Shown: positions 3,587 through 5,397 of the stretch, one piece after another | How positions within the stretch are numbered: position 1 is the stretch's first letter | How the letters are laid out: each line of letters opens with the position of its first letter | Source of the DNA: an uncultured virus (IMG/VR IMGVR_UViG_3300043105_000059) | Lineage: Duplodnaviria; Heunggongvirae; Uroviricota; Caudoviricetes | Direction: 5' to 3' (one strand) | Length of the DNA: 20,000 bases | IMG/VR virus record: IMGVR_UViG_3300043105_000059 | Notes under the pieces: model-generated | What the model was told of the DNA's origin: nothing | Seen by the model: only the letters and a program-made list of their open reading frames with translations | The model's database searches: none | Made by a program: the position numbers and the translations under genes

Positions 3587-3790
3587 TTACCAATCATAAC
3601 TTTTAATATTTTTATTTACTTTATGGTACTTAAAATTATGGTTAGCAATTATACATTCTAATAAATAATTTTCAACATCTCCATCTCTAAGATAAAAATT
3701 AATAATATTAAATATATAATCTTTATTTTTAGAGTTGAAATGTTGACCTGTAGAATGTATAAATTGATAAAAGAAATCTTCTGCCGTCAT
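3587..3790 (-). CDS. Hypothetical protein
   Basis: 67 aa; ATGA overlap with the dut stop codon. Confidence 0.65.
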   Translation of the reverse strand: MTAEDFFYQFIHSTGQHFNSKNKDYIFNIINFYLRDGDVENYLLECIIANHNFKYHKVNKNIKSYDW

Positions 3791-3975
3791 TTATCCCCAG
3801 TATGTCCGAAACCTCCAGCACCTCTTGTAGTTTCATCAAGTGAATTTACAGGAACCCACTGAATCTTAGAAACTTGCTCTAAAGTAATTTGAGCTATACG
3901 ATCTCCATGACGTACTACAAAATTATTATCAGGATCAGTATTTATTAAAATAACTCCAATTTCACCGCGATAATC
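3787..3975 (-). CDS. dut: dUTPase exon 2
   Basis: DYRGEIGVIL (motif 3, second half), GDRIAQ (motif 4), RGAGGFGHTG (motif 5); joins exon 1 in frame to give GCIDA|DYRGE, 172 aa spliced. Confidence 0.95.
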   Translation of the reverse strand, partial: DYRGEIGVILINTDPDNNFVVRHGDRIAQITLEQVSKIQWVPVNSLDETTRGAGGFGHTGDK

Positions 3976-4232
3976 CATTTATGTTATCCTAAAGACTCTT
4001 TATTCTTTAGTTCTGCAGTTTCATTAGTTATATCTGCAGGTCGGACTATATCTTCTCCAACAATATTTATAATTTGTTGGAGCAGGGCACTCGTGGTAGC
4101 ATTACTATCCTCGCTAAGGACTCGGCTACTAGTCTCTGAACCTTCAAGAGTATTACTACTCAAGCTTGGCTGCTGATTGTCCACCTCTGGAGTTTCCAGC
4201 AATTCACCCTGTTTTAAGACGCCAATTATCGC
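3976..4232 (-). ncRNA. Group I ribozyme catalytic core (IGS, P3-P9)
   Basis: Canonical P/Q/R/S elements, extra helices between P7 and P3' (GTAGC/GCTAC, TCCT/AGGA), P9 CTGCAG...CTGCAG and CTAAAGA...TCTTTAG, terminal G. Confidence 0.9.
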
Positions 4233-4973
4233 TTTATATTTTTCAGATCGTTCATGTGCTTTAGTATTATGGTATGTAGTATGTTCAGAACGTGTTAGTA
4301 TTTGAAGATTTTCTAAACGATTGTCTGTTTTTATTTCATTTATATGATGCACATCATATTCATCTTTTAGAACAATCCATCCATTAACATTCTCAAAATA
4401 CTTAGGATCAAACTTATCATGATTTCTTTCAATTACTAATCTATGCTGTCTAACTCTAGATCCTTGAACACTTTTATCACAGGGTTTTGGATGTCCTGGA
4501 CAATACTCTAACACGTAACCTAAATTAGAAATTGTTTCTTTACCCTTAAAACTTGCATTTTTATCACCAGTAAGTCCATATTGATGATTATTTTCTCCTA
4601 AATATGTAGTTTCTCTTAATTTGTTACTACATTCTTTACTACAACAAATTTGCGTTTTAACTTTTTTTATTCTACTAGGTTTCGCATAGAATTGGTTACC
4701 GCAAATAGGGCAAGTACAATTTAACTCAGTCTTTTTTCTAAATAAAGCTGAGCAAGTAGTGCTACAACATTGATAGGTCTTTGCACGACTCGGAGTAACG
4801 TATTCTATTTTACCACAATAAGCACATATTACTTCTATTTTATCTACAGCATTCTTTTCATTCGGTTTTCCTTTACTGTGTTCATCCGAACATTGTTTAC
4901 AACAATATTTTCGATGAGCACTTTTCTTTCCTAAGAAAGTTTTTCCACAATTTAAACAAATATATTCTACCAT
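3984..4973 (-). CDS. Intron-encoded HNH homing endonuclease with three N-terminal Cys-rich zinc-finger repeats
   Basis: CxxC...CCxxxC three times; VRQHRLVIE...DVHHINEIKTDNRLENL HNH motif; ATG at 4973 (MVEYIC) preferred over the TTG at 5006. Confidence 0.9.
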   Translation of the reverse strand: MVEYICLNCGKTFLGKKSAHRKYCCKQCSDEHSKGKPNEKNAVDKIEVICAYCGKIEYVTPSRAKTYQCCSTTCSALFRKKTELNCTCPICGNQFYAKPSRIKKVKTQICCSKECSNKLRETTYLGENNHQYGLTGDKNASFKGKETISNLGYVLEYCPGHPKPCDKSVQGSRVRQHRLVIERNHDKFDPKYFENVNGWIVLKDEYDVHHINEIKTDNRLENLQILTRSEHTTYHNTKAHERSEKYKAIIGVLKQGELLETPEVDNQQPSLSSNTLEGSETSSRVLSEDSNATTSALLQQIINIVGEDIVRPADITNETAELKNKESLG

Positions 4974-5067
4974 ACTAATTTTTTTAATATGGTTAAATAT
5001 AGACAATTTTATTGGAATAACCTAATAAAAATAATAAATTGTGTAGTAACTGTTAATATATAATTTT

Positions 5068-5397
5068 AGCGTCTATACAACCTGGCGTGTTAAGAACAGT
5101 TATACCGTGTTTAAGAGCTAATCCGCTACGAGGTCTTACTTTTATTTCATAACCTTCTGGAATTGCAACGAATAAACCAGTAGGAATAAGTGCTCTACCT
5201 CCGGGACGGATAACCACAGCACCACCTTCTGTATAAAATTGATTATCTAAGATACAATCAACTCCTTTAACATTAAGTATTCCATGAATATCTGCTCGCA
5301 CATCCATACCAGCAGAACCATCGGTTTCATAACTAGGAAGTGGATTATTCCATTGTTCATCATAATATTGCTTTTGCTTTACTTTTACTTCTACCAT
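5068..5397 (-). CDS. dut: dUTPase exon 1
   Basis: GSAGMDVRA (motif 1), LIPTGL, RPRSGLA (motif 2), NTPGCIDA (motif 3, first half); the unspliced frame stops 4 codons into the intron. Confidence 0.95.

What the first reader, a model, noticed from the sequence alone, without database searches (positions are those of the whole stretch)
3984..4232. Dual-coding sequence: the endonuclease ORF reads through the IGS and entire ribozyme core
Seen: after the HNH domain the ORF does not stop. Its last about 82 codons (AIIGVLKQGELLET...GEDIVRPAD...ESLG) are the IGS, P, Q, R, S and P9 elements, and the stop lies 8 nt before the 3' end of the intron. Known: overlap of endonuclease ORFs with intron cores ('core creep') is described for phage introns. 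Inference: this is an extreme case where ribosomes translating the nuclease would unfold the ribozyme, making nuclease synthesis and dUTPase splicing competing fates of one RNA, a possible built-in switch.
Basis: partly seen in the sequence, partly recalled or inferred. Interest (0 to 1): 0.7.

Follow-up and report, generated by a model that had tools for sequence, protein, structure and literature searches.

The report
Nuclease gene overlapping whole phage ribozyme
In a crAss-like gut phage, the gene for a DNA-cutting homing enzyme sits inside a self-splicing intron and is read on through the whole catalytic RNA; this is the far end of a known kind of overlap, and the extra protein tail looks like a by-product, not a working part.

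Summary
On the minus strand a 1092-nt group I intron (5067..3976) splits a crAss-like phage dUTPase gene. RNA-library contigs from 3 of 4 runs join 5068 to 3975 exactly.

The HNH_3 nuclease ORF (4973..3984) lies in the P1 loop. It has no stop before the guide sequence (IGS), so it runs through IGS and P3-P9.1 to a UAA 8 nt before the 3' splice site.

Chance does not explain the open frame. Only 10 of 20000 shuffles keep it open, and the other two frames hold 13 and 8 stops.

The 82-codon tail behaves as RNA, not protein:
- The paired regions covary: 24 of 39 pairs show compensatory changes.
- It has no codon-position signature, whereas the nuclease body does.
- AlphaFold gives pLDDT below 50 from residue 239.
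- The 11 closest intron relatives stop at six different places; only 3 reach the end.

Reading into the core in this same frame is common: 27 of 115 related phage intron cores, carrying several nuclease families.

Best reading: maximal "core creep", a passive run-on. A ribosome on the ORF must unfold the ribozyme, but a selected switch is not shown.

The parts
5068..5397 (-). dUTPase exon 1 (ends ...GAC GCU; protein ...GCIDA)
   Evidence: Pfam PF00692 on the ORF 5053..5397. Exon end fixed by the joint 3975|5068 in RNA-library contigs and by the sequence.
3976..5067 (-). Group I intron, 1092 nt. Starts AAAAUU and ends ...AAAUG (terminal G at 3976).
   Evidence: Rfam RF00028, 70.3 bits. Exactly this stretch is skipped in contigs of 3 of 4 RNA libraries. 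The joined exons are in frame.
5053..5055 (-). UAA that closes the exon 1 reading frame 15 nt inside the intron
   Evidence: Sequence, (the ORF 5053..5397 ends ...KIIY stop).
4961..5001 (-). Predicted hairpin that holds the nuclease start codon (AUG 4973..4971) in its 3' arm
   Evidence: strand folding on 80 nt: -16.3 kcal/mol, z -2.39, 5 of 200 shuffles fold as well. Only 3 of 11 family members reach z -1.76 or lower, so it is not a conserved feature.
3984..4973 (-). Homing-endonuclease ORF, 329 aa from the ATG (340 aa from the TTG at 5006). It has Cys-rich repeats and an HNH_3 domain (nt about 4370..4281), then the run-on tail.
   Evidence: the ORF listing. Pfam HNH_3 at 33.6 bits against a cut-off of 24.8. 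His and Asn columns are invariant in the 12-sequence alignment. AlphaFold is confident for most of residues 1-238.
3984..4232 (-). The finding itself: the last 82 codons plus the stop, which are also IGS, J1/3, P3-P9.1 and the GAUAAC motif
4218..4232 (-). Internal guide sequence. 4223..4218 pairs with the exon 1 end (P1). 4232..4224 pairs with the exon 2 start (P10).
   Evidence: Read. The exon-end and IGS pairing is 6 of 6 in all 8 relatives where my motif search found the exon end, with GCU/GGC against UCU/GGA covariation.
4170..4211 (-). P3 5' strand, P4, P5 and P4'. This is the invariant part, read as ..GELLE..NQQP..
   Evidence: Alignment of 33 family cores with invariant columns. P3 and P5 show covariation.
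4096..4134 (-). P7 5' strand (4134..4130) and the P7.1 hairpin (4129..4096)
   Evidence: the P7.1 pairs show compensatory changes.
4044..4087 (-). P3 3' strand, P8, J8/7 and the P7 3' strand. The codon after P7' is CGA here and UGA in most relatives.
3989..4039 (-). P9 (4039..4034 / 4018..4013) and P9.1 (4010..4004 / 3995..3989), whose loop AUAAAGAG is conserved
   Evidence: both helices covary.
3983..3988 (-). Family-conserved GAUAAC, whose UAA (3986..3984) is the nuclease stop codon
   Evidence: The motif column is conserved in most of the 33 family cores, whatever their ORF.
3787..3975 (-). dUTPase exon 2 (starts GAU UAU CGC; protein DYRGE...)
   Evidence: Pfam PF00692, joint, alignment to an uninterrupted dUTPase.

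Best explanation
Window 3984..4232(-) is the 3' quarter of a 1092-nt mobile group I intron in the dUTPase gene of a crAss-like phage.

Why the frame runs on. The HNH_3 homing-endonuclease gene sits in the loop of P1, between the 5' splice site and the internal guide sequence (IGS). The conserved part of the protein ends right at the IGS, and there is no stop there. The frame therefore continues in the only frame that the invariant P3-P6 core leaves open. In this phage it meets no stop until the UAA inside the conserved GAUAAC, 8 nt before the 3' splice site.

What the tail is. The 82-codon tail is a by-product. Its sequence is set by the ribozyme, it evolves as RNA, and it is probably a disordered appendage that the nuclease can do without. 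This is core creep taken to its maximum.

Inferred consequence. A ribosome translating the nuclease gene must melt P1/IGS and the whole core. On one RNA molecule, at one moment, translation and ribozyme folding therefore exclude each other.

Inferred resolution. Order and kinetics most plausibly settle this, rather than a dedicated switch. Initiation may be weak, since the start codon lies in a predicted hairpin. Splicing may come first, after which the excised intron still carries the complete ORF and can act as its mRNA.
For: Shown:
- Intron ends and junction.
- The ORF lies in the P1 loop. ORF-less copies of the same dUTPase intron have only about 55 nt (L032) or about 115 nt (L087) between the splice site and the same IGS.
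- RNA constraint on the tail. RNAalifold on 33 family cores gives 39 pairs, 24 with compensatory changes, in P3, P5, P7.1, P9 and P9.1.
- No protein signature in the tail. Across 4 read-through introns the variable columns by codon position are 27/29/31 of 77 each. The synonymous fraction is 0.25, against 0.21 and 0.16 in the two untranslated frames.
- Positive control. In W, L007 and L011 the HNH body gives 111/84/134 of 197, while the tail gives 20/21/27 of 78.
- AlphaFold pLDDT is below 50 for residues 239-329 and high for most of 1-238. Pfam finds nothing in the tail.
- Variable stops in the 11 closest relatives: P6a loop (L008, L016), P8 loop (L001, L002), J8/7 (L049), the UGA after P7' (L003, L063), P9.1 loop (L090), GAUAAC (window, L007, L011).
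- The window's nearest HNH body is L008, which has the shortest tail.
- Relatives L012 and L017, in loci without an Rfam intron hit, end 3-10 residues after the shared GR(I/F) motif.
- After GUC-CGA the last 23 codons stay open in 4 of 7 introns whose ORF reaches them, and in 5 of 11 whose ORF does not.

This matches the core-creep predictions of variable length and a dispensable extension (PMC3073962, passages).
Against: - The frame is much more open than composition predicts (10 of 20000 shuffles). It is also more open than in 14 untranslated family members, which hold 2-10 stops in this frame.
- Family cores with a nuclease ORF in this frame stay open longer than those without: median 47 against 19 codons, Mann-Whitney p 0.039, n 19 and 14, not corrected for relatedness. 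This could mean selection against early stops.
- All indels among the four full read-through introns are multiples of three. Those four were chosen for being open, so this test is circular.
- ORFs of several nuclease families enter the core in this one frame far more often than in the other two. A purely passive model explains this only through shared ancestry of the ORF 3' end.
- No data on translation, protein or splicing kinetics were available.
Confidence: 0.65

Rival explanations
1. Selected coupling. Read-through of the core is kept by selection because ribosome passage unfolds the ribozyme. Nuclease synthesis and splicing then exclude each other on precursor RNA and are timed against each other, as in T4 td/I-TevI but with the whole core involved.
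For: - The physical overlap is complete.
- The frame is open beyond chance.
- Open stretches are longer where a nuclease ORF feeds into the frame (p 0.039).
- 27 of 115 related cores have a long ORF entering in the same frame, with HNH_3, HNH, GIY-YIG, LAGLIDADG and NUMOD/HTH proteins.
- The start codon lies in a predicted hairpin in the window (z -2.39), recalling the I-TevI ribosome-site hairpin (passage).
Against: - Stops fall at six places among the 11 closest relatives, and early stops exist in complete phage genomes.
- At least 5 nuclease ORFs 5' of such cores end before the IGS, and 5 end at J1/3-P3, so read-through is not required.
- The start hairpin is not conserved (3 of 11).
- The excised intron keeps the whole ORF, so the two fates need not compete.
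- RNA-library contigs show the joined exons, so splicing proceeds.
Confidence: 0.2
2. The tail is a working part of the protein, for example a flexible acidic C-terminal arm that binds DNA, the intron RNA (maturase-like) or a host factor.
For: - The tail peptide is similar in L007, L011 and L067.
- It is rich in acidic, Ser and Thr residues, as flexible arms often are.
Against: - The similarity follows RNA conservation, and compensatory helix changes alter residues freely.
- There is no third-position excess.
- pLDDT is below 50.
- The tail is truncated in 8 of 11 close relatives.
- Pfam finds no family in the tail and the PDB sequence search finds no relative of the whole protein.
Confidence: 0.07
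3. The nuclease gene is a decaying relic that is no longer translated, so the overlap has no consequence at all.
For: - Homing-endonuclease genes often decay after fixation (general knowledge; abstract of PMC13405050 seen in the listing).
- A crAssphage-like variant (L046) has the ORF in two pieces.
- ORF-less copies exist.
Against: - The window's ORF is intact over 329 codons.
- The HNH His and Asn columns are invariant.
- The body shows a coding signature of 111/84/134.
- The fold is confident in the body.
Confidence: 0.08

Closest known systems
Phage T4 td intron with I-TevI (as described in PMC3073962; passages seen; the primary paper by Gibb and Edgell 2010 was not read)
   Same: A phage group I intron in a nucleotide-metabolism gene. 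The nuclease ORF's 3' end supplies core nucleotides. Ribosomes on the ORF disturb splicing. The translation start is held in a hairpin.
   Different: I-TevI is a GIY-YIG enzyme in the P6 loop and overlaps 20 nt (P6a to P7). Here an HNH_3 gene in the P1 loop overlaps about 250 nt, that is IGS plus every core helix. The start hairpin here is only predicted and is not conserved among relatives.
'Core creep' (Edgell, Chalamcharla and Belfort 2011, PMC3073962)
   Same: Extension of an intron ORF to the next in-frame stop inside the ribozyme. Both predictions fit: variable length, and an extension that is not needed by the protein.
   Different: Table 1 of that review lists 9-81 nt for bacterial and phage cases. 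Here the extension is as long as the intron allows. The open stretch is too long to be reached easily by single stop losses in sequence with background stop density. A long-tailed ancestor with repeated later truncation fits the relatives about as well as stepwise creep.
dUTPase intron of the prototype crAssphage (Carjivirus communis BK010471, KP06_gp34/gp35) and of cr1_1 and cr50_1
   Same: Same gene, same insertion site before (D/G)YRGE, same nuclease family and same ribozyme family. The annotated nuclease CDS also covers much of the core.
   Different: Their ORFs stop earlier: at the UGA after P7' in crAssphage and in the P8 loop in cr1_1 and cr50_1. Rfam does not reach its gathering score on these three loci.
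P1-inserted ORFs in the review's Table 1 (Synechocystis tRNA-fMet intron, 61 nt over P1/P2; Physarum I-PpoI, no overlap)
   Same: The nuclease gene lies in P1.
   Different: Their overlap is at the 5' side or absent, not a 3' run through the whole core.
[quoted passage not shown]
   Same: Long stretches of intron RNA serve as both coding and structural sequence.
   Different: There the extension runs 5'-wards, to borrow the exon's translation signals. Here the exon frame is closed 15 nt into the intron, and the extension runs 3'-wards.
Cyanophage S-PM2 psbA intron
   Same: The P3-P6 core is 76% identical over 90 nt. A psbA-borne member (L092) appeared in my pattern scan.
   Different: No nuclease ORF feeds into the core there: in L092 the long ORF that ends near the core is the psbA exon itself (Photo_RC).

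Membership tests
Group I intron (Rfam RF00028) | Covariance-model score at or above the curated gathering score | tested here: met
   70.3 bits against 50, E 2.6e-16, model positions 1-253.
Group I intron (Rfam RF00028) | P1 formed by the exon 1 end and an internal guide sequence, with U.G at the splice site; P10 with exon 2; terminal G | tested here: met
   GACGCU pairs with GGCGUC, there is a 9-bp P10, and the terminal G is at 3976. Pairing is 6 of 6 in all 8 relatives whose exon end my search found. Of the 13 searched, 3 gave no hit and 2 gave a wrong site.
Group I intron (Rfam RF00028) | Core helices supported by compensatory changes | tested here: met
   24 of 39 RNAalifold pairs have double changes across 33 sequences. 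P4 and P7 are invariant. P6 and P8 were not recovered by the automatic fold, and one small invariant hairpin was drawn in place of P7.
Group I intron (Rfam RF00028) | Exons joined at the predicted sites in RNA | tested here: met
   Contigs of RNA libraries X1, X2 and X3 skip exactly 3976..5067; X4 shows none. Caveat: these are contigs, and an intron-less DNA allele carried in the library would look the same.
Group I intron (Rfam RF00028) | Autocatalytic, guanosine-dependent splicing | not testable with these tools
   Needs in vitro transcription and a splicing assay.
HNH_3 homing endonuclease (Pfam PF13392, I-HmuI-like) | Domain match above the curated cut-off, with conserved His/Asn/His | tested here: met
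   33.6 bits against 24.8. H209, H210, N218, N222, H231 and H235 are invariant in 12 sequences. No solved structure was found by sequence search.
HNH_3 homing endonuclease (Pfam PF13392, I-HmuI-like) | Cuts or nicks the intron-less allele near the insertion site and drives homing | not testable with these tools
   Indirect evidence only. The same site is occupied with ORF-bearing, ORF-less and uninterrupted dUTPase forms among relatives.
Core creep (PMC3073962) | The length of the extension varies between related cases | tested here: met
   Six stop positions among the 11 closest relatives. Tails run 5-91 codons past the P4 anchor among 27 ORF-bearing cores.
Core creep (PMC3073962) | The extension is not needed by the protein | tested here: inconclusive
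   Supported indirectly by the lack of a codon signature, pLDDT below 50 and truncation in relatives. No activity test was possible.
I-TevI-type translational control | The translation start is sequestered in RNA structure | tested here: inconclusive
   Window hairpin z -2.39 (5 of 200 shuffles). Only 3 of 11 family members reach z -1.76 or lower.
I-TevI-type translational control | A separate (late) promoter inside the intron | not tested
   The promoter tool covers sigma-70-type sites only, and Bacteroidota and crAss-phage promoters differ (recalled).

The most novel reading that the evidence does not exclude
Read-through of the ribozyme by nuclease genes in the P1 loop may be a selected, family-wide device rather than an accident. 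In at least 23 phage introns, ORFs with HNH_3, HNH, GIY-YIG, LAGLIDADG or NUMOD/HTH domains (or, for three GenBank records, annotated as HNH) enter the core in the one frame it leaves open. Ribosome passage through IGS and P3-P9 would then make nuclease synthesis and splicing mutually exclusive on the precursor. That would confine nuclease production to excised introns or non-splicing transcripts and protect dUTPase expression. The window would be the fullest form of this.
Probability: 0.15. Interest if true: 0.7.

Novelty: new variant of a known kind. Interest (0 to 1): 0.45.

Why it matters
Overlap between an intron's nuclease gene and its ribozyme is the textbook place where a selfish gene and its carrier RNA must compromise. 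The best-studied case overlaps by 20 nt.

Here every catalytic helix of a ribozyme that apparently works is also read as codons. A set of natural relatives differ only in where the reading stops. That gives a ready-made series for asking how much ribosome traffic a ribozyme tolerates, and whether such tails are neutral.

There are practical points too:
- The intron sits in crAss-like phages, the most abundant human gut viruses. There the split dUTPase and the over-long nuclease CDS are easily mis-annotated.
- Rfam misses the crAssphage, cr1_1 and cr50_1 copies at its gathering threshold.

The difference from known cases is one of degree. My four literature searches found no description of a whole-core overlap in a phage intron, or of the single-frame pattern. 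The library lacks most subscription journals.

Tried and rejected
1. Test on the four full read-through introns: 0 polymorphic stop columns in the translated frame against 9 and 16 in the others, and all indels multiples of 3. Rejected as evidence, because the four were picked for being open. The test is circular.

2. Does CGA rather than UGA after P7' go with an ORF that reaches it? It is 5 of 9 against 6 of 24 (my count), which is not convincing. After CGA the last 23 codons are open in 4 of 7 reached and 5 of 11 unreached introns. There is no signal.

3. A metagenome scan for close variants of the window's 3' core gave one contig, the same one as L011. A population-level count of nonsense or frameshift variants was therefore not possible.

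4. The HNH tree is mostly unresolved: 9 of 12 inner branches are open, and L067 sits on a very long branch. Only the window+L008 and L001+L002 pairs are usable.

5. The Rfam alignment draws an extra 5' helix at 4298..4245, inside the HNH coding part. Relatives' hits start at varying distances from P4, so I do not count it as part of the core. It was not examined further.

6. I first read all 27 long ORFs entering the core as nuclease genes. Pfam shows nuclease-type or NUMOD/HTH domains for 20, and GenBank annotation covers 3 more. Four have no family (L054, L086, L107, L108) and could be host exons. Long ORFs ending just before P3 are mostly host exons: capsid, DNA polymerase A, ribonucleotide reductase, psbA.

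7. The search of earlier findings returned nothing for this place.

8. PDB sequence search: no hit.

9. PMC11835236 (intron database paper): the passages seen hold nothing on overlap between ORF and core.

10. In run X4, and in some bins of X1-X3, no contig covers parts of the stretch. I draw no conclusion from those gaps.

Full report
**What is there**

The window is from a crAss-like phage. The stretch is 100% identical to two IMG/VR contigs (L005, L006). Its nearest named relatives are uncultured phages cr1_1 and cr50_1 (Crassvirales) and the prototype crAssphage.

On the minus strand a dUTPase gene is split:
- Exon 1 is 5397..5068 and ends ...GCIDA.
- Exon 2 is 3975..3787 and starts DYRGE... 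Pfam PF00692 matches both pieces.
- Between them lie 1092 nt that Rfam recognises as a group I intron: RF00028 at 4298..4013, 70.3 bits against a gathering score of 50.

I read the splice sites from the sequence. Exon 1 ends GACGCU, with the U at the splice site. The intron ends in G at 3976.

The splice sites were confirmed independently. Contigs assembled from three metatranscriptome libraries (X1, X2, X3; coded as three studies) join 5068 directly to 3975, skipping exactly 3976..5067. A fourth run shows no joint. X1 also holds pieces that cross both intron borders unspliced. These are contigs from RNA libraries, so an intron-less DNA allele in the sample cannot be excluded. The joined exons are in frame (172 aa) and align without a gap across the junction to an uninterrupted dUTPase.

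**The observation**

The ORF 3984..5006 has its probable start at the ATG 4973, giving 329 aa. It encodes Cys-rich repeats and an HNH_3 nuclease domain (Pfam 33.6 bits against a cut-off of 24.8).

It lies between the 5' splice site and the internal guide sequence (IGS), that is in the loop of P1:
- 4223..4218 (GGCGUC) pairs with the exon 1 end.
- 4232..4224 pairs with the first nine bases of exon 2.
- Two ORF-less copies of the same dUTPase intron (L032, L087) have only about 55 and 115 nt in that loop, followed by the same IGS.

From the IGS onward the ORF's last 82 codons are also J1/3, P3, P4, P5, P6, P7, P7.1, P8, P9 and P9.1. The stop UAA (3986..3984) lies in a GAUAAC motif, 8 nt before the intron's last base.

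Chance does not explain the open frame:
- Only 10 of 20000 dinucleotide-preserving shuffles keep it open.
- The other two frames hold 13 and 8 stops.
- Fourteen family members that are not translated in this frame hold 2-10 stops in it.

**The RNA is real and constrained**

I aligned 33 cores of this ribozyme family. They came from a pattern scan of viral contigs and from the relatives named above. RNAalifold predicts 39 pairs, 24 of them with compensatory double changes, in P3, P5, P7.1, P9 and P9.1. P4 and P7 are invariant. P6 and P8 were lost to alignment gaps, and one small invariant hairpin was drawn in place of P7.

The exon-end and IGS pairing is 6 of 6 in all eight relatives where my motif search found the exon end. 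It covaries: exon GCU with IGS GGC, exon UCU with IGS GGA. Of the 13 searched, three gave no hit and two gave a wrong site.

**The tail is not conserved as protein**

Among the 11 introns with the same nuclease family and IGS type, the ORF always runs through IGS, P3, P4, P5 and into P6 in the same frame. It then stops at six different places:
- P6a loop: L008, L016.
- P8 loop: cr1_1, cr50_1.
- J8/7: L049.
- The UGA directly after P7': crAssphage, L063.
- P9.1 loop: L090.
- GAUAAC: the window, L007, L011.

A fourth full read-through, L067, carries a different HNH gene; the sequence after its 3' splice site does not read as the dUTPase motif, but I did not identify its host gene.

On the HNH tree the window's closest relative is L008, which has the shortest tail (support 92/92; most other branches are unresolved). 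The ribozyme and tail are therefore inherited apart from the nuclease body.

Codon-level tests point the same way:
- In the four read-through introns, variable columns fall evenly on codon positions (27, 29, 31 of 77 each).
- The fraction of synonymous codon differences is 0.25. It is 0.21 and 0.16 when the same bases are read in the two untranslated frames.
- In W, L007 and L011 the nuclease body shows the usual coding pattern (111/84/134 of 197 codon columns). The tail does not (20/21/27 of 78).
- Helix changes that keep pairing change residues freely. The P6a arms, for example, read SSNTL in the window and DGNIS in L011.

AlphaFold, run with a 12-sequence alignment, is confident for most of residues 1-238. 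It gives pLDDT below 50 for 239-329. The alignment is shallow, and the mean pLDDT is 68.9. Relatives in loci without an Rfam intron hit (L012, L017) end 3-10 residues after the shared GR(I/F) motif, which in the intron copies sits right on the IGS.

**Why the frame runs on**

The nuclease's conserved C-terminus abuts the IGS, and there is no spacer for a stop of its own. In the invariant P3-P6 block the other two frames are closed, by the UAA in J1/3 and by the UGA in GGUGAAUU. The third frame, read as ..GELLE..NQQP.., has no stop. After that block, stops can appear only in variable loops or at the C/U after P7'.

**The pattern is not special to this phage**

Of 115 distinct cores carrying the P4-P6 pattern, 27 have a long ORF (90 or more open codons upstream) entering the core in that frame. 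Their tails run 5-91 codons past the P4 anchor.
- Pfam shows HNH_3, HNH, GIY-YIG, LAGLIDADG_2, LAGLIDADG_3 or NUMOD/HTH domains for 20 of them.
- GenBank annotation covers 3 more.
- 4 have no family and may be host exons.

Five nuclease ORFs end between -19 and -2 of the P4 anchor (L036, L040, L043, L097, L098). At least five end upstream of the IGS (L026, L028, L034, L060, L096). Reading into the core is therefore common but not obligatory.

**Is the long open frame selected?**

The evidence is mixed.

In favour:
- The shuffle result and the stop density in untranslated relatives.
- Within the 33-member family, cores fed by a nuclease ORF stay open longer than the others: median 47 against 19 codons, Mann-Whitney p 0.039, n 19 and 14, with no correction for relatedness.

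Against:
- Early stops have arisen at least five times among 11 close relatives.
- The ORF-less L032 and L087 keep 89 and 117 open codons without a nuclease. L087 still shows what looks like a remnant of the HNH C-terminus.
- After GUC-CGA the last 23 codons are open in 4 of 7 introns whose ORF reaches them, and in 5 of 11 whose ORF does not.

My test on the four read-through introns (no polymorphic stops in the frame, all indels multiples of three) is circular, and I do not use it. A long-tailed ancestor followed by repeated truncation fits as well as stepwise creep.

**How it most likely works**

Shown:
- An intron with intact guide pairings.
- A covarying core.
- Joined exons in RNA libraries.
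- An intact nuclease gene with a coding signature.

Inferred:
- A ribosome on the nuclease ORF must open P1/IGS and every core helix, so a molecule being translated there cannot be splicing at that moment.
- Ribosomes from exon 1 stop 15 nt into the intron, at the UAA 5055..5053.
- The nuclease start codon lies in the 3' arm of a predicted hairpin (4961..5001; z -2.39; 5 of 200 shuffles fold as well). Only 3 of 11 family members reach z -1.76 or lower, so this is a weak lead.
- The stop precedes the 3' splice site, so the excised intron keeps the entire ORF. Splicing first and translation afterwards would remove any conflict.

Nothing here shows a switch.

**Comparison with what is known**

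The overlap of nuclease ORFs with intron cores, the name core creep and its two predictions are in Edgell, Chalamcharla and Belfort 2011 (PMC3073962; passages seen). So is the finding that ribosomes on I-TevI sequences impair td splicing. Hausner and co-authors 2014 state that expression of such ORFs is tightly controlled (PMC3984707; passage). Table 1 of the 2011 review lists overlaps of 9-81 nt for bacterial and phage introns.

Fungal mitochondrial ORFs fused to the upstream exon are the long 5'-ward counterpart (PMC8393795; passage).

The crAss-phage genomics paper mentions group I introns and dUTPase, but in the passages I saw it does not mention this overlap (PMC7886860). The GenBank record of crAssphage annotates the split dUTPase and an intron-encoded HNH CDS that covers part of the core.

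Four full-text searches found no description of a whole-core overlap in a phage intron, or of the single-frame pattern. Subscription journals are largely outside that library.

**Verdict**

This is a real case of a known kind of overlap at its maximum. It is best explained as an RNA-dictated run-on of the nuclease frame, with confidence 0.65. A selected coupling of translation and splicing remains possible, at about 0.2, and can be tested with the natural series of stop variants.

Noticed in passing
L013:1486-2517, L014:1489-2487, L015:1468-2499, L018:1441-2454; also L020 and L021:1378-2157: In these relatives the HNH nuclease ORF continues in frame into dUTPase sequence, with no group I hit at the Rfam gathering score. 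In L013-L015 and L018 a nearly whole, uninterrupted dUTPase follows the HNH part. In L020 and L021 only the C-terminal dUTPase motif follows. These could be fusions, in-frame insertions or another kind of intervening element.
   Followed up: no
L032:1060-1377(-) and L087, about 1100-1560: These are ORF-less copies of the same dUTPase intron, with a short P1 loop. L087 keeps what looks like the last ~25 codons of the HNH gene and an open frame of 117 codons to within about 10 nt of the 3' splice site.
   Followed up: partly
L007:1470-1495, L090:645-676, L001:2370-2398, L011:1448-1483, L049:640-670: A shared (U/G)(A)CGUUAU-like motif, often the 5' arm of a small hairpin, lies 20-30 nt upstream of the nuclease start codon in several relatives. 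It may be a promoter or a regulatory element inside the intron. The window itself has a different hairpin there.
   Followed up: no
L024-L140, 33 aligned: One ribozyme family is spread over many phage genes: capsid genes, DNA polymerase A, ribonucleotide reductase, psbA and dUTPase. It is marked by the P9.1 loop AUAAAGAG and the 3' motif GAUAAC. Its members carry HNH, GIY-YIG, LAGLIDADG or NUMOD/HTH ORFs, or none.
   Followed up: partly
L001, L002, L003 (cr1_1, cr50_1, crAssphage): Rfam RF00028 does not reach its gathering score on these three dUTPase introns, although they align well to the window's core. Automatic annotation will miss them.
   Followed up: no
L046:1177-1813(-): This contig has the crAssphage-type core but its nuclease ORF is in two pieces in different frames (143 and 98 codons). 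It is either a decaying gene or an assembly error.
   Followed up: no
window 4218..4223 against the HNH body: Mosaic ancestry. The window's nuclease body is closest to L008 (56% identity). By eye, its P7.1 and P9 regions look closest to L090 and L007.
   Followed up: partly
L004 (Bacteroides phage PhiCrAssBcn14, locus 2501-2575): A 75-nt match to the 3' part of the window's core lies between two CDS that are both annotated as replicative DNA helicase. A hypothetical protein sits upstream and a GIY-YIG gene is nearby. This is probably an unannotated intron of the same family in the helicase gene.
   Followed up: no
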